A model generated the notes under the pieces. That model did not search any database, was not told where the DNA came from, and saw nothing but the letters and a program-made list of their open reading frames with translations. Positions 3,207 to 33,095 of a stretch of DNA of 62,127 nt are shown here, piece after piece. The stretch is from positions 1 to 62,127 of the forward strand of contig DASVSV010000208.1 of assembly GCA_036387915.1 (NCBI GenBank), read 5' to 3'. The translations under genes and the position numbers were made by a program. The DNA is from Thermoanaerobaculia bacterium. GTDB taxonomy: Bacteria > Acidobacteriota > Thermoanaerobaculia > Gp7-AA8. Each line of letters starts with the position of its first letter. Position 1 is the first letter of the stretch.

Positions 3207-3211
3207 CGATC

Positions 3212-3454
3212 ATGGAAGGACGTGTCCTCCTCAAATGCGGCGAGTGTGACCTGACCCGGGAGATCGCCGGCGAGATCCCCGACGAATTCACGCGCTCTTT
3301 CGACGAAGCCGTCCACCAGGACGGCTGGGTCCCCCGCCCCGGCGCCAACACCGCCTCCCTCATCTGCCGCGACTGCCTGGTCAAATACGCCGGCCACGAG
3401 ACGGTCGACGACGAGGAGAAGGTGCAGGGGCGCAAGAACCCGATGGAGCCGTGA
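3212..3454 (+). CDS. Small hypothetical protein with two Cys pairs (possible zinc ribbon)
   Basis: 80-aa ORF starting 5 nt after the peptidase stop. It has strong G/C third-position bias and the pairs CGEC...CRDC. Confidence 0.5.
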   Translation: MEGRVLLKCGECDLTREIAGEIPDEFTRSFDEAVHQDGWVPRPGANTASLICRDCLVKYAGHETVDDEEKVQGRKNPMEP

Positions 3455-3575
3455 GCTTTAGTCCATCCTGAGCGAAGCGAAGGATCAACGGAGCCCTCAC
3501 GAGAAACGTCCGATGCACGCTTCAGGTGAGGGCTCCATTGACCCTTCGGCGCGATGCGCCTCAGGGTGAACTGCT

Positions 3576-5474: not shown

Positions 5475-5636
5475 CTCCTTTTGGGTCGGCCTTACAGAAT
5501 TCGTACCGCCCGGCTTTCAGTGCGGGCGCAGTATGAATGAACGGCCATTCAGCCGTCAATTTGCAGGACCGGGGCCAGTGGCGGGAGTGTTCAGGGCACC
5601 GCTCGCGGCGGCGTCAGCCGACTTGGACGGGAGTGA

Positions 5637-13244: not shown

Positions 13245-13556
13245 TCAAATAGGTGGCCCTTCGCCTCGGCTATCGGACCAGACCGCGAGCACCTCAATGA
13301 TGCTCTCGGAGTCGAGCACCCGGTAGTAGAGGTAGTGCCCGATGCGCGAGAGGTGGATGCGGCGAACGTCTGGAAGTTCGACATCCACCGCGGGTGGGCC
13401 GATGCGTGGCTGGTTCAGTATGAGCCGGAAGACACGCATCAGCTCATCCTGCACGGCATTCCGCGCGGCGCTCCGGTTTTTACGCCACCAGGCATTCAGG
13501 TCTTTGACCTGATGACGCGCGACTCGGCTGATGTCGATTCGAAAGAGCGTCGTCAC
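13245..13556 (-). CDS. Type II toxin, RelE/ParE family
   Basis: 103 aa with a ParE-like pattern (A..D...I..Y...... then R..........YY......I.VL.V.H). The GTG start overlaps the antitoxin stop (GTGA). Confidence 0.8.
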   Translation of the reverse strand: MTTLFRIDISRVARHQVKDLNAWWRKNRSAARNAVQDELMRVFRLILNQPRIGPPAVDVELPDVRRIHLSRIGHYLYYRVLDSESIIEVLAVWSDSRGEGPPI

Positions 13557-13780
13557 TCGTCGATCTGCAGCTCACGCAGGAGCTCGTCCGCGCTGATCTT
13601 GTCGCCCCGGTCGCACTCGGCGATCGCTTCCAGAAGAACCGCCTTGAGCTCCGGAGTGACCTCGAACCCGGTCTCATGATCGTCGACGATCAGAGTGACA
13701 TCGGCACCCTCGGGAAGCTCGCCTTCGAAGACGATCCGGCCCTGCACGACTTTGCCTGAAGCAACTTGCATCGTGAGCAT
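13553..13780 (-). CDS. Cognate antitoxin (family not recognised)
   Basis: 75-aa acidic protein immediately upstream of the ParE-like gene with a 4-nt overlap. An AGAGG Shine-Dalgarno lies 5 nt upstream of ATG 13780. Confidence 0.7.
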   Translation of the reverse strand: MLTMQVASGKVVQGRIVFEGELPEGADVTLIVDDHETGFEVTPELKAVLLEAIAECDRGDKISADELLRELQIDE

Positions 13781-13877
13781 TCTACCTCTTGGGTAACAGA
13801 CAACCCCGCCTGGGTGCCGTGCGGTCAACGGCGATGCACCAATCTCTCAGCAAAAGTCAAAGGCGCAGCGGGGATGA

Positions 13878-15201: not shown

Positions 15202-15651
15202 CTATCGCGGCGGTTTGCAGGTCTGGTAGCTGCGGTAGAGCAGGGTGATGCTGCTGGCCGCGCTTTTATCGTCGTAGACCGAGTAGAGCTGCCCCCACGG
15301 CCAATCTGTTTTAGTGCTGCCGAGCGTGCGGACGAGCCACTCGTCGTGGCTCTTGCGCCGCGCTTCCTCTTTCTCCCGCGACCAGTCGTCCCACGACGTG
15401 CCGAAGCGCGGATCGCCGTCGATCAGGGTGATGCTGTGCAGGTGCTCGTCGTGAAAGAAGAGCGAGACGAGAAACTGTCGTCCGTCCACGAGCTGCGGCC
15501 GGAGGACCGCGTTGAACCAACCGGCTTTTTCGTTGGTGTAATCGCCGCTCACGAACATCGGCGAAGCGAGGGCCGACGACTTCGTGGTGTCGCGGCTGAC
15601 GACGCCTTCCGGCGTCGTCAGCTCACCCGTTAGAGGATCGATCTGAATCAT
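15202..15651 (-). CDS. Putative immunity protein for the RHS C-terminal toxin
   Basis: 149-aa cytoplasmic-looking ORF with no signal peptide. Its ATG overlaps the TGA of the RHS gene (ATGA at 15648-15651), the canonical position for a polymorphic-toxin immunity gene. No family was recognised. Confidence 0.65.
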   Translation of the reverse strand: MIQIDPLTGELTTPEGVVSRDTTKSSALASPMFVSGDYTNEKAGWFNAVLRPQLVDGRQFLVSLFFHDEHLHSITLIDGDPRFGTSWDDWSREKEEARRKSHDEWLVRTLGSTKTDWPWGQLYSVYDDKSAASSITLLYRSYQTCKPPR

Positions 15652-18600
15652 TTCTTCATATTAAACACGCGCACCGGCTCGAGGACGTCGGCGTACGACT
15701 CGATGAAATACTGGAATCCGCCGCCGCCCCCATGCTGGCGATTCGCTCTGGTGAGGCCGGCCGGCACCTCGATGTCTTCCTTTACACGATAAGCCTGAAT
15801 CCGGTCGCGGGGCGGGTACTTGCCGGGGCGCATGTCGACCTGAACGAGGTCATGGTAGTCCTTCTGGTTGAGCTTGCTCTTCTTGATCGTCGCCAGATCG
15901 GTGTACCACTGCCCCTGACCGGGGAACGCACCGTAAATGAGCTGACCCTTCTTCAGGCGTGTGATGCGGTATTTATCCTGGCCGCCGTACCCGGGATAGA
16001 GCTGCGCGTTGCGCGCCCGCTCGATCTTCCCGGCGCGGCGCTCGCCCAGGTTCGCCGCGGCCGCGGGTGTACGATTCGACACCGCCTGTCCGCGCACGTT
16101 GCGTCCGCGCTTCGCCCCGAGGGCAGTCAGGGCGAGCTGCGCGGCGGAGACGCCGCCGCGTGTGTAGTCGCCGTGTACCACCGCCTCGTGCAGCGAGATG
16201 GCTGTCTGTGCAACGGTGACGGCGTTGTCGACACGGTTCACAATGACCGACGCGCGCAGGACGGTGCGGACCACGCGGCCCGCGCGTCCAGCCATCGAGG
16301 CGGCGCGTACCAGCACGCCTCCACCCATGCCGCCGGTGGCGACGTTCGCGAGCACGGAGGCGCCGGTGAGCGCCATCCGCATCGCGTACTCCTTCCCGTC
16401 GATCCCCCCGGTCGCGTACTGATACGTGTCCCAGGCCGCGAAGGCGATGTCGACGGCGAAGCCCCACGCCTCGCCGGTGGGATCGTTCTTGTTGATCGGA
16501 TCGTTCGCCGCGTACGCATAGAGGTTCGGCGAGTCGACGTAGCCGCGAGGATCGGGGGTCAGCCAGGTGCCGGTACGCGGGTCGAACCAGCGCGCGCGCA
16601 CGTAGCTCTTGCCGGTCATCGGGTCGAGGAACGGGTGCGCGTGGAAGCTGGACGAAACGATCAGCGTGACCGGATTGCCGATCGGTGAGCCGGCCATGCG
16701 CGGCGTGCCGAGCGCGTAGAGGCTGGGAACGTCGTAGAGCGCGGTGGTCTGCTGTTCGTCCGCCGGGAGCGCGGCGAGCCACTGCGACAGATTGGCCAGC
16801 GACTCACGCACTTCGAGCGGCAGCAGCGCAGATGTGTACACCGGCTTCGTTGCGACCGCCCACGCCGGCGCGGCGAGGAACGGCTGCGCCGAGCTCCACG
16901 CTTCGGCGCGTGCGTCCTTCGTCACCGCGATCGAGAGAGCGGACGGCGTCAGGGTCTGGCCGTCCACGACGACCGGCTCCGTCGAGACGAGCGTGTTCCA
17001 CTCCGCCTCGGTCAGGCTCCACTGCACCGTGGCGCTGTTGATGAGCGACGGTGCATTGGTGGCCGCGCGCACGACCTTGCCGGCCGCGTCGATGACCGCC
17101 AGACGCACGCCTGCCGCCAGCGTCGACGGCGCGAAGTGCTCGGTGGACCGCAGCAGCACGTCGACGGCGGTGATCTTGCCATCGGGGTCGCGGCGCGCGG
17201 AGACCGAGACGCGATCGACCGCGCTGCCCTTCAGCACTGCTTCGTCTTCGCCGTACGGGCCGCCTTCGACGCTGCGCGAAACGATGCGTCCCTGTTCGTT
17301 CAGGATGGCGTCGAGTGAGCCGGCACCGCCCTCGTCGTAAATCGGGTAGAGACGGGCAACGCCGTTTGGCGCGGTCCCATCCGCCGCCGCGACTTCCAGC
17401 GGATCGTCGTAGCGCGCGCCGCCATGGATGATCTGGCGCACCAGACCACCGTTCTCGTCGATCTGAGGATTCTGGCTCGCGCCGGCCTTGTAGATGGCCA
17501 CGAGCTGATCGTCGACCGGGTCCCAGACGAACGTCGCATCCGGCGGAAGTGCGTCGGCGGCGATGACTTCGAAGCGGTCTTCGAGCTTCCAGTCGGTCTC
17601 GGTCGGATTGCTCGTCGCGCCGGCGTACTCCGCGCGGCGGCCCACCATGCGGTCGTCACCGCTGTAGAAGTACTTCACGCGACGGGGCGAGGCCGATTTC
17701 TGCGTGACGACGGAGAGACGGCCCTTCAGGTCGTATTCGTAGATGAACTGCCCGTCTTCACTGCGCTCGCCGCCGTTGAACGAGAACGCCTCGGCGGCGC
17801 TGCCGCGCTGCATCGACGCGATCTTGTGTCCCGGTGCTTCGCTGAACAGCAGCGACGGCGGATCGACCGGAGTGGTCTTCGTACGCATGAGCGCCGAGCG
17901 GAAGTCGGCGGAGTTGAGGTCCGCGCCATCCGGCGTGGAGCCTCCGTCGCGGGCGAGGCTGGTCGCGGTGAGACGGCCGCGTCCGTCGTAGGTCCACTCA
18001 TCCGCCCGCGCGCCGCCGGAGACGCCGAGGAGCTGCGCGCGGGATTTCTGGATGCCGTCCCAGGTGACGAAGGACCCGGCAACGGTGAGGCCACCCGATT
18101 TGACTTCCATCTTGTTGGGCAGGCCGGTGCCGCTGTCGTATCCGTAATCGCGCACGATCTGCGAGCCCGTCACGGTCGTCACGACGCGGCGGTCAGGACG
18201 ATTCGCGTTGCGGTAGTCCGCCTGCAGCAGTGAGCCGCTTCCGGCGCCGCCGGACATCTGCCGTTCGATGCCGATGAGATTGCCCATGGCGTCGTGCTGC
18301 TGCGTCACCGACCGCGTCCACGCGTTCGCCGATGAGAAGCCGGAGTACGTCGGCATCGTGAACGACGTCCGCTCACCGTGCTCGTTGTAGGTGTGGCGCT
18401 GCTCGTATTGATCGATCAGCGTGCCGCCGCGATAGCGCGACTGCGTAGTCTTGCCGGCGCGTCCCTCACCGTCGTAATCGTCGTAGTCGACCACCGCGTC
18501 CGGGGTCTTCCAGCGTGTGATCCGTCCAGCGGGGTCATAGGTGTATTCGTCCAGCACCACGCCGCTGCCGCCCGTGGTCCGTTCGATTTGTCCCTTGGCG

Positions 18601-27600: not shown

Positions 27601-30600
27601 CGGTGCGTGAGACGGATGTCGATCGGGATCACGCCCGCGCCGGCCGGCACGATGATCTCGCGGAACACGCTGGTGTAGCCCGCGTGCGCGGCGCTGATCG
27701 TGTGTGCGCCTTCCGGCAGGCGGGCGAGATAGCGGCCGCGCGCGTCAGTGGTGGTGGTGACCGGCGCCGGAGAAGCAACGTCGACGGCGATGGTCACGCC
27801 CGGAAGCGGGCGGCCGGTGGTCGCGTCGTAGACCTCACCGGAGATGAAGCCGGAGCCGTCGCCCGTCTCCGGCTGACCGCCGGCGAGCGTGAACTCCTGC
27901 GTGTACGGCGTGGTCAGCTTGTTGCCGGTCGTGTCTTCGATCTGCGTCCCGACGGTGAGCGTGAACGCGCGCTGGGTCAGATCGGAGGCCGGCGTGACGG
28001 TGACGCTGTTGCCGGCGACGCTGGTGGTGCCGGCGACGGTGGTGCCGTCGCCGAGGGTGAGCACGATGCCGGCGCCGCCGACGCTCACCGTCGACGCGTC
28101 GAGCGCCTCGGAGAAGCTGATGGTCAACTTGTTGACGGTGCGGTCGAAGGCGGCGTTGAGCACCTGCGGACCGCTGCAGTCGACGCGCACGGTGAGCTCG
28201 GCCGCGGGCGAGAGGCTGCCGTCGGAGCCAACCACGCGCACGCGCACGACCGTGAAGCCGGACTGGCCGCTCATCGGATAGGTGAAGGTGAAGCGGCCAT
28301 GCGAATCGGCGGAGGTGGTGAGGACGAGCGTGCCCGACTCGAGGCGCACGCGCGCGCCCGGCGCGGCGGTGCCGGTCACGGACATCGACTGGCCGCAGAC
28401 GGCGCTGCCGACCGGGTCGACGTTCGGCGGCGTCGACGGGGCGGACGAGGCGACGGTGAAGCTGCTCGCGTAAGCCTCGGCGACGGCGGTGCCGGCGAGG
28501 TTCTTCGCGGCGCCGTTCACGCGCATCGTGTAACGGCCGCCCTTGGCGAGCAGCGTCGACGGCGCGAAGGTGAGCACGTCCTTGTCGAGGTAGAGCGAGC
28601 CGGAGACCGGCGCGCCGTTCGCGTCCTCGAGACGGAAGCCGCCGCTCAGCGAGGCCACGTCCATCGGCTGCGAGAAGAGCACGAGCAGCAGCGCGCCCGC
28701 GTCGACTTCGGTCGCGTTCTGCGCGGGGAATGACTCGACGACCTTCGGCGCGTCGTTGAGACGGGTGACGAAGATGACCGTCGCGGCGCTGGTGCCGTCC
28801 GGCTCCGTGACGCGCGCGACCACCGGCGTGGTCGCACCGGAGACCGGCGAGAACGTTGCGGTGGCGGTGTAGCTCGAGCCGCTGATGGTCGCGCCGTTGC
28901 CGTTGACGTCGACCAGCGCGCCCGCCTCCGCGGTGAAGGTGCCGGTGACGGTGAACGTGTTGCTGCCGGGGCCGAACCAGGACTGGCTTGCGGGGGAAGT
29001 GATGCTGATGCCGGGTGAGCCGGCCACGAGCTTCACGACGACCGTGGCCGTGGCCTCGCGGTTCAGGCGATCGCGCCCGGAGACGCGCAGGGTCTGGTCG
29101 CCGCTGGAGAGCGGCACGTCGATGGCCGCGAAGGCGCCGGTGGTGTCGCTGAAGCGCTCGGCGTTCGCGGGCCTGGTCTGGTTGCCGCTCAGGTTCGTGA
29201 CGACGATCGATGCGGGATCGATGTTCGTGTACGTGCCGCTGACGGTGATGCGGTTCACGCCGGTGGTGGCGTTGGCGGTCGGCGTGCTGATGGCGATCGA
29301 CGGCGCGTCCTTTTCGTAGACGCCGCGGCGCGAGGCGGTGGCGGTGCGTCCCGCGGCGTTGCGGCCGTGCGCGACGATGATGTTCAGTCCGTCCGCGAGC
29401 CGTACGGTGGGGACGGTGAAGGTCGTGCCGGTGATGGTGGCGGCGACGCCGTTCACGTCCGCGCTGGTCACGCCCGGGCCGACAGTGCCGCTGACCGCGA
29501 TCGTCTCCTGCGACGTCACGAAGCCTTCGGCCGGCGTATTGATGTTGATCGACGGATCGCCGGTGACGCGCTGCAGCGTGAGCGTGGCGGGCGTGCCGGT
29601 GGGCGTGCCGTTGGCGTCGGTGCAGTTGACGGTGACGACGTTCGTCCCTTCGTTCGGCAGCTCGACGGTCGCGGAGAACGAACCGTCGGCGACCACGGCG
29701 GGGACGCCGTTGGCCTTCACGCCGATCGCGCCGCCGGAGCGGCCGACGATGGTCACGGAACTCGACAGCACGACCGCGTTGTTGGTCGGGTCGAAGCCTT
29801 CGAGCTTGCAGTCGGCGGTGGCGGTGGCGGCGCCGATGAAGAACATCCGCTCCGCGCGCGACTGGTTGCCGGCGCGGTCGCGGGCCGTGGCGACGACGGA
29901 GTGTCCGCCGGCCGCGGTCACGCTCGACGGCGCGGCGGCGACGGTGCCGTCGATGGTGAGCTCGGTGGTCACGGAGCCGCCGGCATCGCTCGCGTCGAGC
30001 GAGATCGCGGCCCGCGTGGCGAAACGAGCGCCGTCGGAGAGCGGCTGGCTCGACTCGAGGATGGTCAGCGACGGCGGCGTGAAGTCGGCCGTGACGTGCG
30101 TCGACGCGGACGTCTGCAGTCCGTTCGACGCGGTGGCCGTGGCCGTGATCGTGTTCTCCCCTTCCGTCAGCGCGTAGCCGGTCAGGCGGAAGCCGCCCGG
30201 CGCGTCGACGGGCACGCTCTGCGTGCCGATGGTGACGGTCGTGCCGCGGCCCGCGGTGAGCAAGCGGCCGGCGACGTCGGTCGAACGGCGGTTGGTGATC
30301 GAGCGATCGGCGGGATACGTGAGGATGATGCCCGCACCGGCGTCGTCGCGCAGGACGGTCACGTCGGCGCGGCCGTTGTTGCCGGCGGCGTCGCGCGCGG
30401 CGATGAAGATCGCGTTGGCGCCATAGTCGAGCGGCAGCTCGACAGCGAATGAGCCGCCGTCGCCGAGGGTCAGCGGCGCGCCGTTGATCGTCGCGGCGAC
30501 GGCGCCGGTGACGGTGCCGCGCACTTCGACACGATCGCTGCGGATGACGGCGTCGTTGGCCGGCGAGGCGATGGTCACGGCCGGCGGTGTGCGGTCGATG

Positions 30601-33095
30601 GTGAACGTCGCTTCCGCACTGCCGCTGTGGCCGAGGTTGTCGGTGGCGGTGGCGTGGATGCGGTATTCGCCGTCGGCGGTGATGGTCGTGCCGGACGTGT
30701 ACGTGGCGCCGTTCAGCGTCGCGCGGACCGGCGCGTCCGGCATTGCGCGCAACACCGGTGTGATGGCGCGGTTGTAGAGCGTGCCGTTCACGATCGGGAG
30801 GCCGCTCTCGCGGATCTCGACGGCCGGCGCGTTCGTGCGCACGACGACGCTGTACGCGACCGAGGCGCTGTTGCCGGCGCGGTCGGTGGCGACGAGCGTG
30901 AAGCGGTTCGTGCCTTCCGCGAACGGCACGCCGGCGATGGTGAAGCTGCCGCCGGCGCCCGGCGTCGCGGAGAGAGAGGTCGCGTCGACGGTCACGGTCG
31001 CGACGTCGGTGTCGGTCTTCGCGGCGATGGCGTTCGGCGTCGTACCGACGGTGCCGCCGTTCGCGGGCTGGAACTCGCGAATGGAGGGCGCGGTGAGATC
31101 GATCGTGAACTCGACCGTCTTCTCCGTCGCGTGCCCGGCGCAGTCCGTGGCCTTCACCACGAGCTTGTGCGCGCCTTCACCGTCGACGGACGTGCCGGAG
31201 GTGTACGCGGCGCCGTCGAGCGTTGCCGTGACGGTGACGTTGGGATCGGTGTCGGTGGCGCGGACGAACAGCGACACCGCGCGATTGGTGAGCGTGGTGG
31301 TGAACGGCGCGCCGCCGGCAGTCACTTCGATTGCGGGGGCGGTGCGGTCGACGATCACGCCGCGCGAGCGGGAGGCGGTGTGGCCGGTCGTGTCGCGCGC
31401 CTCGACCGTGATCAGCAGTTTGCCTTCCGTCGCCGGAATGCTCGCCGTCCACGCGCCGCCGGTGACGGTCGCATTCACCCCGTTCACTCTCACGAAGTCG
31501 AGGCGCCCCTCGGCCACAGTGCCGCTGACGGTGATCGTGGCCGCGTCGACGCAGGCGTCGGCGGCGGGGGTGGTGATGGTGAGCTCGGGGGCGCGCGTGT
31601 CGACGGCCAGCGAGAGCGTGGCGGTGCCGGTGTTGCCGGCGCGGTCGGTGCCGGTGGCGACGATGGTGTTCGCCCCTTCGAGCAGCGCGACGGGGCCGGT
31701 GAAGGTCTTCGCGGTCGCGTCGACGGTGGCGGGGGTGCCGCCGAGGGTGACGGTGACGGCGTCGTCGGAGCCGCCGATGACGATGGCCTGCGCTGCAGTG
31801 AGCACGGCGCCGTTCTGGTGCGAGGTGAAGGTCAGGACCGGCGCGGTCTTGTCGATGGTGAACGTGAACGGACCGGCCGTCGTCGTCCAGCCGGCTTCGT
31901 CGACGGCGGTGAGGGAGAGCTGGTGCGTTCCTTCGATGCCGTACGCGAGGCCGGGCGTGTAGGGCTGGCCGTCGATGGTGGCGCTGACGACGGTGTTGCT
32001 GACGTCGACCACGGTCGCGGTGATGACCACGTCGCGGTTGAAGTAGAAGTTCGCGGGGAAGGCGTTGCCGCTCTCGAGCGCCGACACCACGGGCGGCGTC
32101 TTGTCGACGAGGAACTTGCGCTCGGTCTCGCTGGCGTTGCCGGCGCTGTCGGACGCGCGCACGAGCAGCGTGTGCCAGCGCTCCGTCGTCACCGGCGTGA
32201 GCGAGGTGTACGGCGCGCCGTTGAGCGTCGCGGTGAAGTTGACGGCGGAGAGGTCGTCGGTGACTTTGACCTCCGGCGTGGCGTCGCGCTTGAAGACGGT
32301 GCCGTCGGCGAGCGGCGTGCCGCTCTCGAGGATGGAGATCAGCGGCGCGGTGAAGTCGACGGGGGACTTCGCGAAGAGGTCGTCGACGTACGCCTCCCCT
32401 TTCACCGCGGACCAGATGCCGATGCGGCCGGAGGTCAGACGCGACGAGGCGGCGTCGACGGCGTCGATGGAGAACGTTTGCGGCTCGGTCGAGCCTTCAG
32501 GCCAGAAGCGGGCGCGGATCTTCGTGGAGTTGTCGGCGTCGTCGACCTCGATGACGAAGCGGTACCACTTGTTGACGTCGACCGAGACGTTGCTGTCGAC
32601 GGTGCCGGAGATCGAGCCGGCACCGAAGCCGAAGAGCTGCATGGTCAGCTTGCCGGCCGGCGTGGACCAGAGTCCGATGAGGTAGTAGCTGTCGCTCTGC
32701 GGATACGAGGAGAGGAACGTCAGTCCGATGCGCGTGTCGTCGCTGGTGCGGAGCAGGCGCCCGCGGTACTCGAAGCGGCCCCTGGCCGAGAAGGTCTTCG
32801 GCGCGTGCGTGGAGAACGTGCCGATGCGCGGGTTGCTGCCTTCCGGCTTGCCCGAGCTCTGCTTCGTCCCGTACACGACGTTCGGGTTCTTCTTGTCGAT
32901 CGGGTCGGGCCACGTCTTGTACAGGCCCTGCGCCTCCGGCCGCGGCTGGCCGATGGAGTTGTCGATCCAGCCCGGCGGGTTGGCCTGCGTACCGTAGGCC
33001 TGGAAGCCGTCGATGAACTCGACTTCGGGCGGCGGGGTCTGCGCGAGGGCGAGGCTCGCGAACAGCACAGCAATCAGCGTGGCAGTTCTTCTCAT
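15648..33095 (-). CDS. Giant (5,815 aa) secreted RHS/YD-repeat polymorphic toxin with LamG, Ig-like array, TTR-like domain and propeller-like region
   Basis: Uninterrupted 17.4-kb ORF with a signal peptide. Contains many YD-type repeats (YxYDxxGR/N), an RHS-associated core end motif, and a variable C-terminal extension followed by an overlapping small ORF. Confidence 0.92.
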   Translation of the reverse strand: MRRTATLIAVLFASLALAQTPPPEVEFIDGFQAYGTQANPPGWIDNSIGQPRPEAQGLYKTWPDPIDKKNPNVVYGTKQSSGKPEGSNPRIGTFSTHAPKTFSARGRFEYRGRLLRTSDDTRIGLTFLSSYPQSDSYYLIGLWSTPAGKLTMQLFGFGAGSISGTVDSNVSVDVNKWYRFVIEVDDADNSTKIRARFWPEGSTEPQTFSIDAVDAASSRLTSGRIGIWSAVKGEAYVDDLFAKSPVDFTAPLISILESGTPLADGTVFKRDATPEVKVTDDLSAVNFTATLNGAPYTSLTPVTTERWHTLLVRASDSAGNASETERKFLVDKTPPVVSALESGNAFPANFYFNRDVVITATVVDVSNTVVSATIDGQPYTPGLAYGIEGTHQLSLTAVDEAGWTTTAGPFTFTIDKTAPVLTFTSHQNGAVLTAAQAIVIGGSDDAVTVTLGGTPATVDATAKTFTGPVALLEGANTIVATGTDRAGNTGTATLSLAVDTRAPELTITTPAADACVDAATITVSGTVAEGRLDFVRVNGVNATVTGGAWTASIPATEGKLLITVEARDTTGHTASRSRGVIVDRTAPAIEVTAGGAPFTTTLTNRAVSLFVRATDTDPNVTVTATLDGAAYTSGTSVDGEGAHKLVVKATDCAGHATEKTVEFTIDLTAPSIREFQPANGGTVGTTPNAIAAKTDTDVATVTVDATSLSATPGAGGSFTIAGVPFAEGTNRFTLVATDRAGNSASVAYSVVVRTNAPAVEIRESGLPIVNGTLYNRAITPVLRAMPDAPVRATLNGATYTSGTTITADGEYRIHATATDNLGHSGSAEATFTIDRTPPAVTIASPANDAVIRSDRVEVRGTVTGAVAATINGAPLTLGDGGSFAVELPLDYGANAIFIAARDAAGNNGRADVTVLRDDAGAGIILTYPADRSITNRRSTDVAGRLLTAGRGTTVTIGTQSVPVDAPGGFRLTGYALTEGENTITATATASNGLQTSASTHVTADFTPPSLTILESSQPLSDGARFATRAAISLDASDAGGSVTTELTIDGTVAAAPSSVTAAGGHSVVATARDRAGNQSRAERMFFIGAATATADCKLEGFDPTNNAVVLSSSVTIVGRSGGAIGVKANGVPAVVADGSFSATVELPNEGTNVVTVNCTDANGTPTGTPATLTLQRVTGDPSININTPAEGFVTSQETIAVSGTVGPGVTSADVNGVAATITGTTFTVPTVRLADGLNIIVAHGRNAAGRTATASRRGVYEKDAPSIAISTPTANATTGVNRITVSGTYTNIDPASIVVTNLSGNQTRPANAERFSDTTGAFAAIDVPLSSGDQTLRVSGRDRLNREATATVVVKLVAGSPGISITSPASQSWFGPGSNTFTVTGTFTAEAGALVDVNGNGATISGSSYTATATFSPVSGATTPVVARVTEPDGTSAATVIFVTRLNDAPKVVESFPAQNATEVDAGALLLVLFSQPMDVASLSGGFRLEDANGAPVSGSLYLDKDVLTFAPSTLLAKGGRYTMRVNGAAKNLAGTAVAEAYASSFTVASSAPSTPPNVDPVGSAVCGQSMSVTGTAAPGARVRLESGTLVLTTSADSHGRFTFTYPMSGQSGFTVVRVRVVGSDGSLSPAAELTVRVDCSGPQVLNAAFDRTVNKLTISFSEALDASTVSVGGAGIVLTLGDGTTVAGTTSVAGNSVTVTPASDLTQRAFTLTVGTQIEDTTGNKLTTPYTQEFTLAGGQPETGDGSGFISGEVYDATTGRPLPGVTIAVDVASPAPVTTTTDARGRYLARLPEGAHTISAAHAGYTSVFREIIVPAGAGVIPIDIRLTHRGPSQTSTGAALALTHGGDTGITRKVDLAVPSAASGAKVTLTAISAQALTGLLPLGWSPIASAEVQLENAPSLSAATLTFHTPAGAVTSAAQNLTAVHYDAVRDEWRVLASSVNVAGDGRASFPIPGAGAYALVYSDKAPGLTPPPLPVVGDVLQGVPAAPATAPELVERDFKLDPAIVVPTGRTVATLRIEGAGEAKFPSGTAVQAYIDEELRLADGSRLLDPPFATDLLLYRNLSGDLGIADFHLAPSAKAAQVILEVGFDHIRILPYPGRLDRGTLIGSEGGRVPADDKVAIEIPTGAVPEPLRATATSLNASDLAAVGNIAGFRVVGGFQLTLQRAVQPAPQDLDGDGQPDAIAGVELFVPARATFSVDAAKMPAPNAQVILAELLDQTPYGRIVRLAAPMMAVDPSQTATPAIRFTTRSIDRSALPVDGVVREGRYIVLAADAPIAFATGTVRMRDLTGRLLSDARVIANPLGVHELTRTNGIYNVPVPAKPAAPFTLVPRHTTTGDGATYTHAAQVDPDAVVRVDLLLVPQPPVLGNVTIFKGDPPSQAALTFGTVTRDVALTTNIRAAFTPAIDPASVTNESITVVNAITGKTVSGRAASEGTTGVIWTLTAGERFEPNTAYSVVISQSIRGTNGATLARSASFSFATVAVFVNTQIRRERIRITIPNEAGISRITGDAGALPAGWQAVATRRVRDFFVRYQATAASDGSFSFLIGDDDVRDRVTTGDLIDLQVVNTNGALAGIYALTPFVTEDGKGFVAPAGAAVTFTSPEGITVNVPEGAFDTPTIVTVNSAQKAEFLDIPELEAENNYATSVNIDFEGFANKPLDVEVAVPPGLNTTGRDFILAWKGMSVRGPRLAVVDMMQVKDGKFTTVLDEETQNAKIGVTNLKTGTNSTLVGRQARDYMLRLIRGGRYMVLDIKVPVGGSVGWGVMEGLQTGYDLMWDIFWSYYDPYVHNFERGGRIIPVITGRPFTVYGIDRATGLQAFQRAYDPIPVGEPGEIATIPTPQQNDSGPYPVFGSPFRVEILDLDVEDIEIRTVRNFSVTVANDNVVVSPSDDPLDSELHVQLLNVKQGTSVSGTAGGSLSIGAKLGDRIVLLIEQKDVDASHPVSIVLNEAIFLGENPSDDGAVDAFLHTQLKLEQAPEPASGGQPNYTDITAHARFTVDSGEKRINIILPGALQREAVYRLTLKGTLTDATTEGAGLKLGAGTVPAANNNLVAVGGGADLPLIFHVRKPEGEIGSFMAADTGVIRGMAMHGNALMVAALDGGLRTFDMSNPAAINGTAPQLSHIGPPNTIYKTMAVQVDRHGRVVTTADLNIVGVMLTYRVEDLVAGATVQQSKASSIINWKLGYSSMIGLPSNTILSDRPESIPFRVKIVNQDDTTDFADRQLFVAGTGASETADFPIEDLKSYNVTVPFSNDTYNYQRITIENPDLDMSWSADATIGGSATLKNVLARPTDKLRIVKNRRAYAVVAHLGYGVGVYDINAMESNRYPGTTQANRYKEQHFLGNGIVGRECGIEPPIWAIGENYINTDVEVRGDPSGDLYIFANHPSKGVLDYRVHLSGSAAGTPSNDATCDQRGETGLLFRTFPPGNEAPRMQALRNAIGSPNMHTMSMSQVHWSVTAEENTRGIRGTLRDLPAQRDYLLVAALDYGIVVVETTGDPFFTPPFPLDDYHIADVIWIPGGAVGLRVMQDSNTAVVTDKNGRVLLVDLSRIDERFDADGNYVEGLFPTAAKAIAGTPSDPNEIGADDPRIIWKSEPGLTAGSQPPIFDASTGIIYGANMAARVVKAVSAVDPVVKMKVNLGNGLTEVGGVIPLGVAIPDHLKTTIDGLCAGKPAPCKENASMGAFRLEVGLPGGLLNSMPNNELWMAVESERIAGAITEQTPNGFPRAHLRRKRRDGTSETGDRAATNFKFKRVVPDALASQLKYQRGYNRYMSPWIVAVSDPRASEQYNWNGASKEKKAEAGCYACERPEFLKTKTESDGIYELYTNGRYLTVRPELAGLGDDTVFEGTEYEYLGKQKRMSGLFTTIMADTIRPTEVLTAGQNPPVATGMIAETIFLHSGELHSATTDLNVGGRAGTELLVERTYRSRTMGGSVFGQGWDSALLRRLRALPNGDVEYRDGSDVWTFKYVNGDYKAPEGLFLKLARTGRGWSIIDQQWRVTDFDDLGRITLETDEFYDPSAPGSGNLIRYVYDETGRLAQVVDPVQRATKFTYWKESEAGASGAFPGMIRQVTDWRDRKIDYEYQSASGTLTKVKLAEVQNVSGGRPAVAYEYGPGGGGFNDVLEMRTNLARITAPHEVLSGGGPRLEFTYDPSSGFKRDRLLAQKWGTGETASFNYNGPTSVSTTDTLGQARTYSLTQQPTNPYADRAHILSITETAVRTSTAPFGQLPGSISPGVPPAGSQDRTYRFTYGPGGNYATASLDGVRSTTFTWKNVEPEAPGYVMTGSNTTGGAAPPVAQTIAYQAGANLATFISSMTANGLKIDSPEPSRNNKNTSANNDQINETEKFDASGQLTTIAGSGGTDASSAGSSATITYAPATDSPHRRALPTSIVDGGLLTKLDYPSATKTVETDARGTVTTIEYDKWQRPIHMSASGGIDEKWEYDATGKLRKHTRKQGSDDVTTTYTYDIMGRQTSESVTGVADVGTATTTIQYNGRTIVTNHPSGAVTTMIVDSLGRPIGRELTTGGSPIVAHYTHDLEDNVVAESDLLTATAFAYDAQGNLTGVLSSDGTRTVATIDAMGNPLTIEERDASGSVLRSWTMQYAGGRLRSVTRTAGSQSTTMEVAWDGAGRTTGVSAGGRAQRTEFDAAGRVQSTASGAGSATSISQIFEQAQASGHSGRLPQKMQKTEKGGGSYSMAMQYNTLGEAVAQTLGSLSWTKQYDQMGNVTASSSPQRGTHTYSYDSQGSMKRETLPGGASTTFGYNAAGTMNSYTDPSSEVTATQTDLIGRATQRTYRDGTTEKIVWEGSRVKSITDRQGRLQTFEYNAKGQIERTTGGSGVVLDEYTYDPAGRITRWKTPDAVVDYDDYDGEGRAGKTTQSRYRGGTLIDQYEQRHTYNEHGERTSFTMPTYSGFSSANAWTRSVTQQHDAMGNLIGIERQMSGGAGSGSLLQADYRNANRPDRRVVTTVTGSQIVRDYGYDSGTGLPNKMEVKSGGLTVAGSFVTWDGIQKSRAQLLGVSGGARADEWTYDGRGRLTATSLARDGGSTPDGADLNSADFRSALMRTKTTPVDPPSLLFSEAPGHKIASMQRGSAAEAFSFNGGERSEDGQFIYEYDLKGRLSVVTQKSASPRRVKYFYSGDDRMVGRRAEYAGATSNPTETDWKLEDRFEVIAADALPPDATFVWDPVDDQLVAIYKAGASQNPQIDENGGLVRQIIHGGARYDDPLEVAAADGTAPNGVARLYPIYDEGGAGSLDAILNEQGRIVSRSVEGGPYGEDEAVLKGSAVDRVSVSARRDPDGKITAVDVLLRSTEHFAPSTLAAGVRLAVIDAAGKVVRAATNAPSLINSATVQWSLTEAEWNTLVSTEPVVVDGQTLTPSALSIAVTKDARAEAWSSAQPFLAAPAWAVATKPVYTSALLPLEVRESLANLSQWLAALPADEQQTTALYDVPSLYALGTPRMAGSPIGNPVTLIVSSSFHAHPFLDPMTGKSYVRARWFDPRTGTWLTPDPRGYVDSPNLYAYAANDPINKNDPTGEAWGFAVDIAFAAWDTYQYATGGIDGKEYAMRMALTGASVLANVATGGMGGGVLVRAASMAGRAGRVVRTVLRASVIVNRVDNAVTVAQTAISLHEAVVHGDYTRGGVSAAQLALTALGAKRGRNVRGQAVSNRTPAAAANLGERRAGKIERARNAQLYPGYGGQDKYRITRLKKGQLIYGAFPGQGQWYTDLATIKKSKLNQKDYHDLVQVDMRPGKYPPRDRIQAYRVKEDIEVPAGLTRANRQHGGGGGFQYFIESYADVLEPVRVFNMKK
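15651..16022 (-). other. C-terminal toxin domain, possibly TNT/ART-fold (NAD+-targeting) like
   Basis: The last ~125 aa read YGGQDKYRITRLKKGQLIYGAFPGQGQWYTD....RIQAYRVKEDIEVPAGLTRANRQHGGGGGFQYFI. The Y.V....V..G........GGG.QY pattern resembles the C-terminal signature of TNT (PF14021)-type NAD glycohydrolases as I remember it. This was not verified by search. Confidence 0.35.
16095..16469 (-). other. Hydrophobic, Gly/Ala-rich linker between the RHS core end and the toxin domain
   Basis: AWGFAVDIAFAAWDTYQY...ALTGASVLANVATGGMGGGVLVRAASMAGRAG has glycine-zipper-like hydrophobic stretches directly after DPTGE. Confidence 0.5.
16470..21392 (-). repeat. RHS/YD-repeat shell region (about 1,641 aa, residues 3902-5542)
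   Basis: Begins FLHSGELHSATTDLNVGGRAG...ERTYRSR...GQGW. Dozens of YD repeats follow (YVYDETGRL, YTYDIMGRQ, FAYDAQGNL, YSYDSQGSM, YTYDPAGRI, WTYDGRGRL, YEYDLKGRL). It ends with RARWFDPRTGTWLTPDPRGYVDSPNLYAYAANDPINKNDPTGE (16470-16598), matching the RHS repeat-associated core consensus. Confidence 0.9.
22176..23858 (-). other. LVIVD-like beta-propeller-like region upstream of the YD shell (about residues 3080-3640)
   Basis: Repeated segments are of the type GMAMHGNALMVAALDGGLRTFDMSNPA, AYAVVAHLGYGVGVYDINA, DYLLVAALDYGIVVVETTGDP and AVVTDKNGRVLLVDLSRI. Boundaries are approximate. Confidence 0.5.
27606..27854 (-). other. Carboxypeptidase-regulatory-like (TTR-like) domain
   Basis: ISGEVYDATTGRPLPGVTIAVD...TTDARGRYLARLPEGAHTISAAHAGY. 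Confidence 0.7.
28746..32363 (-). repeat. Array of about 14 diverged bacterial Ig-like domains (about residues 245-1450), followed by two SbsA_Ig/Big_5-like domains
   Basis: Roughly 85-aa periodicity with boundary motifs D(K/R/T)T(A/P)P(V/A/E/S)(V/L/I) and RD/TD..AGN. Examples are DKTPPVV, DKTAPVL, DTRAPEL, DRTAPAI, DLTAPSI, DRTPPAV and DFTPPSL. PKVVESFPAQNATEVD...FSQPMD is Big_5-like. Confidence 0.75.
32367..33023 (-). other. LamG / concanavalin-A-like lectin domain
   Basis: Residues about 25-243: FEYRGRLLRTSDDTRIGLTFLS...YYLIGLW...NKWYRFVIEV...IRARFWPEG...GRIGIWSAVKGEAYVDDL is a typical Laminin_G_3-like pattern. Confidence 0.6.
33039..33095 (-). other. Sec signal peptide of the RHS giant
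   Basis: MRRTATLIAVLFASLALAQ/TPP shows n-h-c organisation with an A-x-A-type cleavage site. Confidence 0.8.

What the first reader, a model, noticed from the sequence alone, without database searches (positions are those of the whole stretch)
15648..33095. 5,815-aa RHS protein with teneurin / fused TcB-TcC-like order: LamG, ~14 Ig, TTR-like, propeller-like, 1,641-aa YD shell, toxin
The module order read from the translation is as follows. Signal peptide (1-19). LamG-like lectin (about 25-243). About 14 Ig-like domains (about 245-1450). Two Big_5 domains. One carboxypeptidase-regulatory (TTR-like) domain (about 1748-1830). About 1,240 aa with no family I recognise (1830-3070). An LVIVD-like propeller-like region (about 3080-3640). 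A YD shell (3902-5542) ending in the RHS core motif. A 273-aa C-terminal extension. A TTR-like domain, then a propeller, then a YD shell, then a C-terminal toxin is the order known for teneurins and for TcB-TcC cocoons. Here it is fused to a ~3,000-aa lectin and Ig stalk and exported through Sec. The size is several-fold above typical Rhs or WapA proteins.
Basis: partly seen in the sequence, partly recalled or inferred. Interest (0 to 1): 0.85.

Follow-up and report, generated by a model that had tools for sequence, protein, structure and literature searches.

The report
Giant Sec-exported Rhs NADase toxin
This is a real 5,815-residue gene from an acidobacterial (Thermoanaerobaculia-type) genome that most likely encodes a giant surface fibre ending in a protein cage holding an NAD-destroying toxin, with its antidote gene next door; it is a new architectural variant of the known Rhs toxin family, not a new kind of system.

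Summary
Window 15648..33095 (minus strand) is one intact 5,815-aa ORF. More than 15 independent Thermoanaerobaculia/Acidobacteriota assemblies carry collinear ORFs of 5,700-6,400+ aa, so it is not a chimera.

Confirmed modules:
- Sec signal peptide.
- Exactly 14 Ig-like repeats.
- Big_5 domains and a CarboxypepD_reg (TTR-like) domain.
- A beta-propeller (fold level; LVIVD hits in orthologues only).
- A YD/RHS shell: AF2 pLDDT 91.6, with Foldseek matches to Rhs, TLP, teneurin and TcBC shells.
- An RHS-associated core with both catalytic Asp residues.

The 273-aa tail has two parts. The first is a pre-toxin module shared with other RHS proteins. [quoted passage not shown] A 149-aa ORF overlaps the stop codon and is the likely immunity gene.

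By profile the shell is closest to ordinary bacterial Rhs, not to teneurin or Tc. No FN-plug, NHL or TcB domains are detected. The propeller precedes the shell rather than being inserted in it. Relatives without a propeller keep a conserved 260-aa cap. Bacterial teneurin-like toxins with Ig stalks were also described in 2026.

Verdict: new variant of a known kind, moderate interest.

The parts
15648..33095 (-). ORF A: 5,815-aa RHS/YD-shell polymorphic toxin precursor
   Evidence: One stop-free ORF. Collinear with orthologues over residues 1 to about 5552.
33039..33095 (-). Sec (SPI-type) signal peptide, residues 1-19
   Evidence: Read from the sequence: MRR, a hydrophobic core, then ALA|Q. Stand-alone relatives P0018 and P0032 also start with signal peptides. 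Inferred, with no predictor run.
32367..33023 (-). N-terminal conserved domain, residues 25-243; possibly a ConA/LamG-like jelly roll (unverified)
   Evidence: Conserved in 5 orthologues at 40-71% identity. Only 1 of 6 gives weak Laminin_G_3 or Polysacc_lyase hits. No hit for the window protein itself.
28764..32348 (-). 14 tandem Ig-like repeats, residues 250-1444 (stalk)
   Evidence: The jackhmmer self-profile gives 14 domains with E=1e-17 to 1e-32. Pfam finds Glucodextran_B x8, Big_13 x3 and Big_3_3.
27876..28754 (-). Two Big_5 Ig-like domains, about residues 1448-1740
   Evidence: Pfam Big_5, E=1e-25, 2 stretches, best at 1448-1547.
27645..27845 (-). CarboxypepD_reg-like (TTR-like) domain, residues 1751-1817
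   Evidence: Pfam CarbopepD_reg_2, E=6e-12, 45.8 bits against a cut-off of 32.2.
23886..27608 (-). Conserved middle region, residues 1830-3070, mostly unassigned. Contains Big_5 at 2394-2486 and a Big_5-like domain just before the propeller.
   Evidence: 42-72% identical across 13 orthologues. Big_5 is found in 14 of 14 members and a pre-propeller Big_5 in 7 of 12. No other Pfam or PDB relative.
22125..23867 (-). Beta-propeller, about residues 3077-3657 (roughly seven blades with inserts; first blade LVIVD-like)
   Evidence: AF2 model mec294d8e2afa, pTM 0.70. Foldseek matches WD40 and designed propellers at probability 1.0, TM up to 0.63. LVIVD is found in 4 of 12 orthologues. The first blade resembles the LVIVD blades of protein B.
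21393..22124 (-). Conserved cap/linker domain of about 245 aa, residues 3658-3901, with a nearly invariant (>=90%) CxxC (C3809, C3812)
   Evidence: pLDDT about 88 when modelled with the shell against about 51 without it. It is the most conserved segment against L035, at 96.9% aa identity. It sits directly after the signal peptide in the propeller-less relatives P0018 and P0032. Conservation is shown.
16470..21392 (-). YD/RHS repeat shell, residues 3902-5542, starting with DUF6531 (3903-3966)
   Evidence: Pfam DUF6531 and RHS_repeat. TIGR01643 scores 71.5 bits. AF2 gives pLDDT 91.6 for residues 3640-4839. Foldseek matches Rhs cores at 1e-39, TLP 9ifo at 5e-34, teneurins and TcB-TcC. The family profile against PDB sequences agrees.
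16647..17228 (-). Insertion of about 195 aa inside the RHS-associated core, residues 5290-5483
   Evidence: Alignment with clade members and ordinary Rhs proteins. The TIGR03696 match starts only at profile position 24.
16473..16628 (-). RHS-associated core / aspartyl autoprotease motif, residues 5490-5541. Predicted catalytic D5515 and D5538; predicted cleavage after DPTGE (E5542|A5543).
   Evidence: TIGR03696 scores 54.7 bits against a cut-off of 32.5. The segment aligns to YenC2, TccC2 and teneurin core segments. The two DPxG motifs have Asp residues 23 apart, as described for RHS proteins in PMC13018210. Orthologue similarity ends here.
16050..16469 (-). Pre-toxin Gly/Ala-rich helical module, residues 5543-5682
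   Evidence: It has its own homologues (E down to 9e-31), positioned directly after the DPxG| site of other RHS proteins that carry different toxins.
15651..16037 (-). TNT-like NAD(P)+ glycohydrolase toxin domain, residues 5687-5815
   Evidence: PDB 6XTD chain A (Serratia Rhs1-CT), E=3e-13. 7 of 9 aligned cleft residues are conserved, including the strictly conserved Gln (Q5795), mapped onto PMC10539506. Pfam TNT is sub-threshold at E=0.04.
15202..15651 (-). 149-aa candidate immunity gene; ATGA overlap with the stop of A; no signal peptide
   Evidence: GC3 of 0.83. 4-nt overlap. Conserved together with the toxin in L035, with 11 synonymous against 7 nonsynonymous changes. No known family.
33099..50924 (-). 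Upstream co-directional gene B: 5,941-aa LVIVD/CarboxypepD_reg/Big_5 surface protein, likely in the same operon
   Evidence: 3-nt gap to A with an AGGA motif 9 nt before A's ATG. Pfam domains. A B-like gene precedes the A-like gene in L003 and L004.

Best explanation
ORF A encodes a Sec-exported, fibre-like RHS (YD-shell) polymorphic toxin of a clade restricted to Thermoanaerobaculia/Acidobacteriota.

Proposed mechanism:
1. The signal peptide takes the precursor across the inner membrane.
2. An N-terminal conserved domain, 14 Ig-like repeats, Big_5/TTR-like domains and a 1,240-aa conserved region form a long stalk. The stalk presents a beta-propeller and a YD-repeat cocoon away from the cell.
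3. The cocoon (residues 3902-5542) is closed at its N-terminal end by a clade-specific 245-aa cap plus DUF6531, and at its C-terminal end by the RHS-associated core.
4. The core's two aspartates (D5515, D5538) cut the chain after DPTGE5542. This leaves a 273-aa cargo inside the cocoon.
5. [quoted passage not shown]
6. After delivery to a neighbouring cell the enzyme depletes NAD(P)+.
7. The producer is protected by the cytoplasmic 149-aa protein encoded by the overlapping downstream gene.

Shown here: the ORF and its conservation, domain identities, the shell fold, the core motif, the switch from conserved scaffold to variable C-terminus at the motif, toxin homology with conserved cleft residues, and the co-inherited downstream ORF.

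Inferred: export route beyond Sec, surface display, encapsulation and self-cleavage, target organism, role of the propeller, and function of the immunity protein.
For: - ORF integrity and independent replication.
- RHS membership: PF05593 at E=5e-27 and DUF6531; TIGR01643 and TIGR03696 above their cut-offs.
- Shell fold: AF2 pLDDT 91.6 and pTM 0.85. Foldseek matches T6SS Rhs at 1e-39, TLP at 5e-34, teneurins at 1e-30 and TcB-TcC at 1e-22.
- Polymorphic-toxin behaviour: orthologues are collinear at 40-63% identity up to residue about 5541-5588, then unrelated. Their tails carry TNT, AHH nuclease, Tle3-like lipase, PT-TG plus PT-HINT, and other domains.
- Toxin: 6XTD_A at E=3e-13. Y5703, D5707, W5730, Q5752, V5753, R5763 and Q5795 match residues lining the Rhs1-CT catalytic cleft. 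There are 457 homologues, mostly at C-termini of other large proteins.
- Immunity candidate: ATGA overlap, co-conserved with the toxin in L035 with an excess of synonymous changes. A stand-alone relative has a SUKH immunity gene in the same position.
- No T6SS, TcA or other dedicated secretion genes in the 62 kb.
Against: - No experiment supports export, cleavage or toxicity.
Closure of the cocoon and the positions of the cap and propeller are therefore untested.
- Pfam TNT is below threshold (14 bits against 27). Two cleft positions of Rhs1-CT (S1384, H1412) are not conserved.
- The immunity candidate has no recognisable family and only one homologue cluster.
- How a 600-kDa protein would cross the outer membrane of a diderm is unknown.
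- The residue after DPxG is Glu rather than the canonical Leu, although it varies across the clade.
- A 29-kDa cargo is about twice that of RhsA or BiTLP. Encapsulation therefore depends on the larger shell really enclosing more volume.
Confidence: 0.72

Rival explanations
1. It is a genuine but highly divergent bacterial teneurin-like protein (TLP). On this reading the Big_5-like domain before the propeller is the FN-plug equivalent and the propeller is a replaced or diverged NHL. Together with the shell they would form the same integrated superfold as BiTLP and teneurins, sharing ancestry with them.
For: - The linear order BIG, TTR-like, (unknown), Ig-like, propeller, YD shell, short polymorphic CTD, immunity gene matches the published TLP scheme.
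- TLPs are reported in Acidobacteriota.
- The TLP structure 9ifo is a strong Foldseek match to the shell model at 4.6e-34.
- TEN_YD-shell is listed among precomputed Pfam hits of many clade members.
Against: - No FN-plug, TEN_NHL or NHL hit at E<=10 in this protein or at E<=1 in 12 orthologues.
- The propeller has LVIVD signatures and matches 7-bladed WD40 folds best.
- The shell profile is 25 orders of magnitude closer to T6SS-type Rhs than to TLP.
- A DUF6531-type shell start and an extra 245-aa cap lie between the propeller and the shell, whereas in the TLP scheme the FN-plug precedes the NHL and the NHL is followed directly by the shell.
- Propeller-less clade members exist.
- The TLP authors' own HMMs were not available to test.
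Confidence: 0.15
2. It is a fused TcB-TcC-like cocoon whose propeller gates cargo release into a TcA-like translocator, which might be the neighbouring giant protein B.
For: - The cocoon and cargo sizes (1,641-aa shell, 29-kDa cargo) are nearer to Tc BC than to T6SS Rhs, as compared in PMC8765631.
- A propeller is present.
- The TcC core segments align.
- A second giant protein is co-operonic.
Against: - No TcB mid-domain, SpvB or TcA family hits appear anywhere.
- The propeller is N-terminal to the shell start, not inserted in it.
- B consists of Ig, CarboxypepD_reg and LVIVD adhesin-type repeats.
- Tc components have the weakest profile similarity of all shell classes.
- Propeller-less relatives carry their own signal peptide.
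Confidence: 0.03
3. It is primarily an adhesin or scaffold, in the sense of metazoan teneurins, whose toxin is vestigial or serves signalling rather than killing. Alternatively, the toxin targets eukaryotic grazers rather than bacteria.
For: - About 3,600 of the 5,815 residues are stalk or propeller.
- It is co-operonic with another LVIVD adhesin-like giant.
- TNT-family NADases also kill eukaryotic cells (PMC10539506 introduction).
- The TLP paper links such proteins to social behaviour.
Against: - The toxin cleft residues and both autoprotease aspartates are intact.
- The toxin and immunity ORFs show an excess of synonymous over nonsynonymous changes against L035.
- The clade swaps C-terminal toxins, including nucleases and lipases, as expected under antagonistic selection.
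- A dedicated cytoplasmic immunity gene is retained.
Confidence: 0.08
4. It is a T6SS-delivered Rhs effector, or the long ORF is an assembly artefact.
For: The closest solved shells and the toxin homologue (Serratia Rhs1) are T6SS effectors.
Against: - The N-terminus is a Sec signal peptide.
- No PAAR or VgrG family hit was returned for protein A, and no T6SS genes lie within 62 kb.
- The size is far beyond T6SS cargo.
- Against an artefact: more than 15 independent collinear ORFs, a 92%-identical second assembly, and no long DNA repeats.
Confidence: 0.02

Closest known systems
Bacterial teneurin-like proteins (TLPs; BiTLP, PDB 9IFO/9PT5; Raoelijaona et al., Nat Commun 2026, PMC13018210)
   Same: - Sec signal.
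- N-terminal Ig (BIG) and TTR-type adhesion modules, then a propeller, then a YD shell that ends in a DPxG...DPxG aspartyl autoprotease motif.
- A short polymorphic C-terminal toxin and an immunity gene immediately downstream.
- Rare and clade-restricted, and also reported in Acidobacteriota.
   Different: - No FN-plug or NHL is detectable. The propeller is LVIVD-like with about 7 blades.
- An extra 245-aa cap plus DUF6531 lies between the propeller and the shell.
- The TTR-like domain is 1,240 aa upstream of the propeller.
- The shell is about 1.5x longer and carries a 195-aa insertion in the core.
- The cargo is about 29 kDa against about 15 kDa.
- The total length is 5,815 aa against about 2,200 aa.
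- By profile the shell is closer to T6SS-type Rhs than to TLP.
T6SS Rhs effectors (P. protegens RhsA 7Q97; Serratia marcescens Db10 Rhs1 with its NADase CT, 6XTD; Tse5; Tse15)
   Same: - Closest shell sequences and folds.
- The same RHS-associated core.
[quoted passage not shown]
- The toxin-immunity gene pair arrangement.
   Different: - A Sec signal peptide replaces the PAAR, prePAAR or VgrG-binding N-terminus.
- No T6SS genes are nearby.
- A 3,600-aa stalk and propeller are added.
- The immunity protein is unrelated to RhsI1.
- The cap domain differs.
WapA-type Sec-exported Rhs/YD toxins of Gram-positive bacteria (comparison from general knowledge of polymorphic toxin systems)
   Same: Signal peptide, N-terminal wall or adhesion region, YD shell, polymorphic C-terminal toxin, downstream immunity gene, contact-dependent antagonism.
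   Different: The host is presumably diderm. The protein is 2.5x larger, with a propeller and a 14-Ig stalk. Outer-membrane passage is unexplained.
Tc toxin BC cocoon (TcdB2-TccC3 4O9X; YenB-YenC2 4IGL)
   Same: - A large YD cocoon with a cargo of about 30 kDa.
- The aspartyl autoprotease core.
- A beta-propeller associated with the cocoon.
   Different: - In Tc the propeller is inserted in the shell.
- Tc needs a TcA translocator and has no Sec signal or Ig stalk.
- None of the TcB or TcA families is detected here.
- Tc shows the weakest profile similarity of the shell classes.

Membership tests
RHS / YD-repeat polymorphic toxins | Multiple RHS/YD repeats | tested here: met
   PF05593 at E=5e-27. 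TIGR01643 scores 71.5 bits against a cut-off of 15.8.
RHS / YD-repeat polymorphic toxins | RHS-associated core domain with PxxxxDPxG and two catalytic Asp residues | tested here: met
   TIGR03696 scores 54.7 bits against a cut-off of 32.5 at residues 5490-5541. D5515 and D5538 are 23 residues apart, within TPDPRG...NDPTGE. The segment aligns to YenC2 and TccC2.
RHS / YD-repeat polymorphic toxins | Beta-spiral shell fold | tested here: met
   AF2 model of residues 3640-4839 with pLDDT 91.6. Foldseek E=1e-39 to 1e-22 against Rhs, TLP, teneurin and TcBC shells. Closure of the whole shell was not testable.
RHS / YD-repeat polymorphic toxins | Conserved scaffold with a variable C-terminal toxin after the core, and a downstream immunity gene | tested here: met
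   Similarity to 16 orthologues stops at the motif, and their tails are unrelated with different toxin families. A downstream overlapping ORF is co-conserved with the toxin.
RHS / YD-repeat polymorphic toxins | Autoproteolytic release and encapsulation of the toxin | not testable with these tools
   Needs biochemistry or a full structure.
Bacterial teneurin-like proteins (TLP superfold) | FN-plug domain | tested here: not met
   Pfam returned no family for residues 3001-3900 at E<=10, and only Big_5 plus weak ZU5/BRK for 1801-3033. No FN-plug or fn3 hit appears in 12 or 14 orthologues at E<=1. Caveat: the authors' own HMMs were not available.
Bacterial teneurin-like proteins (TLP superfold) | Six-bladed NHL propeller | tested here: not met
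   No NHL or TEN_NHL hit. LVIVD is found in 4 of 12 orthologues. The best fold matches are 7-bladed WD40 domains.
Bacterial teneurin-like proteins (TLP superfold) | YD shell of the TLP/teneurin type | tested here: inconclusive
   The fold matches 9ifo. By profile, however, TLP scores 1e-30 against 1e-55 for T6SS Rhs.
Bacterial teneurin-like proteins (TLP superfold) | TIP domain between the TTR and the FN-plug (present in 96% of TLPs) | not testable with these tools
   No model of TIP was available. The 1,240-aa region after the TTR-like domain is unassigned.
Tc toxin BC subunits | TcB-specific domains, a propeller inserted within the shell, and a TcA partner | tested here: not met
   No TcdB_toxin_mid or SpvB hits. 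The propeller precedes DUF6531. The 62-kb window encodes no TcA-like gene.
T6SS Rhs effectors | PAAR, prePAAR or VgrG-linked N-terminus and a T6SS locus | tested here: not met
   The N-terminus is a signal peptide followed by Ig repeats. The neighbours are housekeeping genes.
TNT-like NAD(P)+ glycohydrolase toxins (Rhs1-CT Db10 / 'Tne3' type) | Sequence homology to a solved, biochemically characterised member | tested here: met
   6XTD_A at E=3e-13 over residues 5701-5808. NADase activity of Rhs1-CT is reported in PMC10539506.
TNT-like NAD(P)+ glycohydrolase toxins (Rhs1-CT Db10 / 'Tne3' type) | Strictly conserved catalytic-cleft Gln plus aromatic and hydrophobic cleft residues | tested here: met
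   Q5795 corresponds to Q1452. Y5703, W5730 and V5753 correspond to Y1359, F1386 and V1409. D5707, Q5752 and R5763 are also conserved. S1384 and H1412 are not. These were mapped by hand from the alignment and the residue list.
TNT-like NAD(P)+ glycohydrolase toxins (Rhs1-CT Db10 / 'Tne3' type) | Pfam TNT (PF14021) above the gathering score | tested here: not met
   13.9-14.7 bits against a cut-off of 27. The orthologue L004 carries a true TNT domain at 87.5 bits.
TNT-like NAD(P)+ glycohydrolase toxins (Rhs1-CT Db10 / 'Tne3' type) | Enzymatic NAD(P)+ hydrolysis, and neutralisation by the cognate immunity protein | not testable with these tools
   Needs an assay. The immunity candidate is unrelated to RhsI1.

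The most novel reading that the evidence does not exclude
The propeller, the 245-aa CxxC cap and the enlarged YD shell with its 195-aa core insertion form an integrated superfold. It would have arisen independently of the teneurin/TLP FN-plug-NHL-shell and of the Tc propeller-gated cocoon, making it a third, convergent solution for coupling a propeller to an Rhs cage. In this reading it is mounted on a stalk of more than 3,000 aa and works together with the co-operonic 5,941-aa LVIVD protein as a new Sec-dependent contact-killing apparatus of Acidobacteriota. The outer-membrane passage and target-cell entry mechanisms would also be new.
Probability: 0.3. Interest if true: 0.65.

Novelty: new variant of a known kind. 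Interest (0 to 1): 0.45.

Why it matters
- It extends the Rhs cage toxin family to a distinct architecture in a poorly studied soil phylum. This architecture is conserved across at least 25 Acidobacteriota (mostly Thermoanaerobaculia) species-level genomes.
- If the propeller really cooperates with the cage, this would be a third way of pairing a propeller with an Rhs cocoon, after Tc toxins and teneurins/TLPs. That bears on how the teneurin superfold evolved.
- The clade offers natural comparisons. Propeller-less 2-kb-class versions and 6,000-aa versions share the same cap and shell, so the contribution of the stalk and propeller to delivery could be dissected.
- It raises a concrete open problem: how a diderm exports and uses a 600-kDa Sec substrate.
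- Practically, it adds an annotated NADase toxin and a new immunity family.

Tried and rejected
- Pfam, NCBIfam and PDB sequence searches on the propeller region found nothing. Only structure prediction and orthologue scans were informative.
- A PDB profile search of the 1,240-aa middle region gave only short spurious hits to designed Kelch proteins and an Ig-like match to TssM. Weak ZU5 hints were not reproducible across orthologues (2 of 14).
- The LamG assignment could not be verified.
- The immunity candidate has no PDB, Pfam or NCBIfam family and only one near-identical homologue cluster. Its role rests on position and co-conservation alone.
- A phmmer search of the DUF6531 region against PDB sequences failed to link it to the RhsA cork. 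That equivalence therefore remains an assumption.
- Direct A-versus-B comparison shows they are not paralogues. Only the LVIVD-like first blade is shared weakly.
- The first 900 aa of protein B have no PDB relative, so there is no TcA-like hint.
Both were redone.
Blade count, cap position and shell closure could therefore not be measured.
- A literature search for LVIVD together with RHS found no description of this architecture.
Full report
**Observation.** Window 15648..33095 holds one ATG-initiated ORF of 5,815 codons on the minus strand. Its third-position GC is 0.91, like the other real genes in the window. Inside it, no direct DNA repeat exceeds 62 nt at 76% identity, and the only tandem arrays are 35-54 nt long. 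The repeated Ig domains are therefore too diverged at the DNA level to cause misassembly.

Independent assemblies reproduce the gene. L035, a 150-kb JGI metagenome contig, is 92% identical at the nucleotide level. It is collinear across the last 10 kb of the gene, the downstream 149-aa ORF and enolase, and the gene was called there as 5,821 aa. A scan of species-representative genomes found 32 related loci, all in Thermoanaerobaculia/Acidobacteriota MAGs. Of the 23 long loci examined, 19 carry stop-free reading frames of 5,647-6,420 aa. The chimera alternative is therefore rejected.

**Anatomy, N to C (residue i ends at window position 33095-3(i-1)).**

- *Signal peptide.* Residues 1-19 look like a Sec SPI signal peptide (MRR, hydrophobic core, ALA|Q; read).
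- *N-terminal domain.* Residues 25-243 are conserved in orthologues. The LamG/ConA-like assignment could not be verified. The window protein gives no Pfam, NCBIfam or PDB hit. One of six orthologues gives weak Laminin_G_3 and Polysacc_lyase hits.
- *Ig stalk.* A profile built from the protein's own repeats finds exactly 14 Ig-like domains between 250 and 1444. Pfam names them Glucodextran_B (8), Big_13 (3) and Big_3_3.
- *Big_5 and TTR-like domains.* Two Big_5 domains and a CarbopepD_reg_2 domain (1751-1817) follow.
- *Middle region.* Residues 1830-3070 are strongly conserved in the clade at 42-72% identity. Apart from a Big_5 domain at 2394-2486 and a Big_5-like domain abutting the propeller, they match nothing.

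**Propeller.** An AF2 model of residues 3060-3960, built on 12 sequences, gave pTM 0.70 with confident beta structure over roughly 3077-3657. Foldseek returned only beta-propellers at probability 1.0. The best TM scores were to 7-bladed WD40 domains, and no teneurin or TcB propeller appeared in the top 50.

The DSSP string suggests about seven four-stranded blades with inserts.

LVIVD (PF08309) scores above its Pfam cut-off in at least two orthologues (P0001, P0002). It is matched at E<=1 in 4 of 12 members, but not in this protein. The first blade resembles the LVIVD blades of the neighbouring protein B. No NHL, TEN_NHL or FN-plug hit appears at E<=10.

**Cap and shell.** Residues 3640-4839 were modelled with 30 sequences and gave pLDDT 91.6 and pTM 0.85. 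Foldseek matches were:

| Target class | E-value |
|---|---|
| T6SS Rhs cocoons | 1e-39 to 1e-33 |
| Bacterial teneurin-like protein 9IFO | 4.6e-34 |
| Teneurins | 1e-30 to 1e-24 |
| TcB-TcC | about 1e-22 |

The shell starts with DUF6531 (3903-3966). It contains YD repeats above the curated cut-offs and ends in the RHS-associated core (TIGR03696, 5490-5541).

A family profile ranks PDB sequences as follows:

| Target class | E-value |
|---|---|
| T6SS Rhs | 1e-55 to 1e-38 |
| Bacterial TLP | 1e-30 |
| Teneurins | 1e-19 |
| TcC | 1e-17 |

The shell is therefore an ordinary bacterial Rhs shell by descent.

Two clade-specific features stand out. The first is a conserved cap of about 245 aa between the propeller and DUF6531, with a nearly invariant (>=90%) CxxC. 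It is the most conserved segment against L035, with 44 synonymous and 8 nonsynonymous differences. It is modelled confidently only together with the shell (mean pLDDT about 88 against about 51). The deeper alignment used for the second model could also explain that gain. The second is an insertion of about 195 aa inside the RHS-associated core (5290-5483), which ordinary Rhs proteins lack.

**Is the propeller the plug?** Probably not. Clade members P0018 (2,051 aa) and P0032 (1,898 aa) begin with their own signal peptides. These are followed directly by the cap domain, the shell and a toxin. P0018 is flanked by a SUKH-type immunity gene.

The autonomous unit is therefore signal peptide, cap, shell, toxin. 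The stalk and propeller are additions. This argues that the cap and DUF6531 close the N-terminal mouth. In RhsA the plug is described as homologous to the TcB constriction domain (PMC8765631). Equating DUF6531 with that plug is my assumption and was not shown by sequence.

**Core motif and cargo.** The sequence ...TPD5515PRG...NKND5538PTGE5542|A places two DPxG motifs with their aspartates 23 residues apart. This is the bipartite DPxG-X18-DPxG arrangement described for RHS proteins, where both aspartates act in catalysis (PMC13018210).

Orthologues are collinear with A at 40-63% identity from the N-terminus to residue 5541-5588. After that they share nothing. Their tails are 250-440 aa long and carry TNT, AHH nuclease, Tle3-like lipase, PT-TG plus PT-HINT, DUF6765 or DUF6883. 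This is the textbook signature of a polymorphic toxin. The residue after DPxG varies in the clade (Q, N, L, E, R, T), so Glu here is not exceptional.

The 273-aa tail of A is bipartite.

- *Pre-toxin module.* Residues 5543-5682 form a Gly/Ala-rich helical module. Its homologues sit directly after the DPxG| site of unrelated RHS proteins that carry other toxins. By analogy with the entry domains of CDI and Rhs toxins, I infer a translocation role.
- *Toxin domain.* Residues 5701-5808 match chain A of PDB 6XTD at E=3e-13. [quoted passage not shown]

I mapped that paper's residues onto the alignment with an offset of 1318. Y5703, D5707, W5730 (for F1386), Q5752, V5753, R5763 and the strictly conserved Gln (Q5795 for Q1452) are retained. 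S1384 and H1412 are not. Pfam TNT itself is sub-threshold.

**Immunity and operon.** A 149-aa ORF (15202..15651) starts within the stop codon of A through an ATGA overlap. It has no signal peptide and coding-like GC3. It is co-inherited with the toxin in L035, with 11 synonymous and 7 nonsynonymous changes. It has no known family and is unrelated to RhsI1. I assign it as the cognate immunity protein by position and analogy.

Upstream, gene B (33099..50924, 5,941 aa) ends 3 nt before A's ATG, with an AGGA motif at -9. It encodes CarboxypepD_reg, Big_5, Big_7 and strong LVIVD repeats. A B-like gene also precedes the A-like gene in the two closest loci. A 284-aa signal-peptide protein of unknown family and a divergent MarR gene lie further upstream.

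The remaining neighbours are housekeeping genes. No T6SS, TcA, T1SS or two-partner secretion genes were found.

**Comparison with what is known.** Homology and the specific order are not supported:

- No FN-plug or NHL is detected.
- The propeller is of a different type.
- The TTR-like domain is 1,240 aa away from the propeller.
- The propeller is not inserted in the shell as it is in TcB.
- The shell is closest to ordinary Rhs.

The concept of Sec-exported bacterial teneurin-like toxins is already published (PMC5851990, PMC6425310 and especially PMC13018210, Feb 2026). Those proteins have BIG/TTR stalks, encapsulated polymorphic toxins and downstream immunity genes.

What is new here is a distinct, conserved acidobacterial architecture:

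- an LVIVD-like propeller;
- a new cap domain;
- an enlarged shell with a core insertion;
- a cargo of about 29 kDa;
- a total length of 5.8-6.4 thousand residues;
- pairing with a second giant LVIVD protein.

I rate it a new variant of a known kind, with interest 0.45.

Noticed in passing
window 33099..50924 (-): A second giant gene (B, 5,941 aa) lies immediately upstream and is probably co-transcribed. It has a signal-peptide-like N-terminus, at least 4 CarboxypepD_reg domains, Big_5/Big_7, Gly-rich beta-helix-like segments and about five tandem units of roughly 400 aa with strong LVIVD hits (111 bits). It is not a paralogue of A. A B-like gene also precedes the A-like gene in L003 and L004.
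   Followed up: partly
window 50935..51888 (-) and 51964..52392 (+): A protein of about 284 aa with a signal peptide and no known family sits 10 nt upstream of B. It may be the first gene of the operon. A divergent MarR-family regulator lies next to it.
   Followed up: partly
window 13245..13828 (-): A ParE-family toxin (103 aa, Pfam E=1e-11) is preceded by an overlapping 91-aa ORF that is the likely antitoxin. The pair lies between the enolase and rhodanese genes. This stretch is absent from the otherwise syntenic L035, so it looks like a recent insertion.
   Followed up: partly
window 16647..17228 (-), residues 5290-5483: An insertion of about 195 aa lies inside the RHS-associated core domain, between the '...YGEDE' and 'FHAHPF...RWFDP' segments. 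It is conserved throughout this clade and absent from ordinary Rhs proteins. Its fold and role are unknown.
   Followed up: partly
window 16050..16469 (-), residues 5543-5682: A pre-toxin module (consensus about WSAxxxxGFAAYDTYQYATGxISGxEYAGRMALNGAAL..GGMGGG) begins exactly at the DPxG cleavage site. It recurs in RHS proteins of other lineages upstream of different toxins, for example PT-HINT. It has no Pfam family.
   Followed up: partly
P0018 (JGI 3300056388) and P0032: Stand-alone clade members of 1,900-2,050 aa consist of signal peptide, cap, shell and toxin, with no stalk or propeller. P0018 carries WHH/Colicin-DNase and a SUKH immunity gene.
   Followed up: yes
JGI 3300041965 contig (no DNA held) and L002: In some related loci the giant gene is split into several ORFs. 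In one, a second partial propeller+RHS cassette (1,370 + 438 aa) follows the main gene. These may be frameshifts or orphan toxin cassettes for C-terminal displacement.
   Followed up: no
window 21393..22124 (-), residues 3658-3901: The cap domain contains a nearly invariant (>=90%) CxxC (C3809, C3812) and a second Cys pair (C3674, C3681). These could form a metal or disulfide site, given that BiTLP shows a cleavage site, a possible metal ion and a disulfide in its plug.
   Followed up: no
P0107 (2,961 aa): A large protein combines a RES domain with a C-terminal homologue of this NADase domain. That would place two NAD+-targeting toxin domains in one polypeptide.
   Followed up: no
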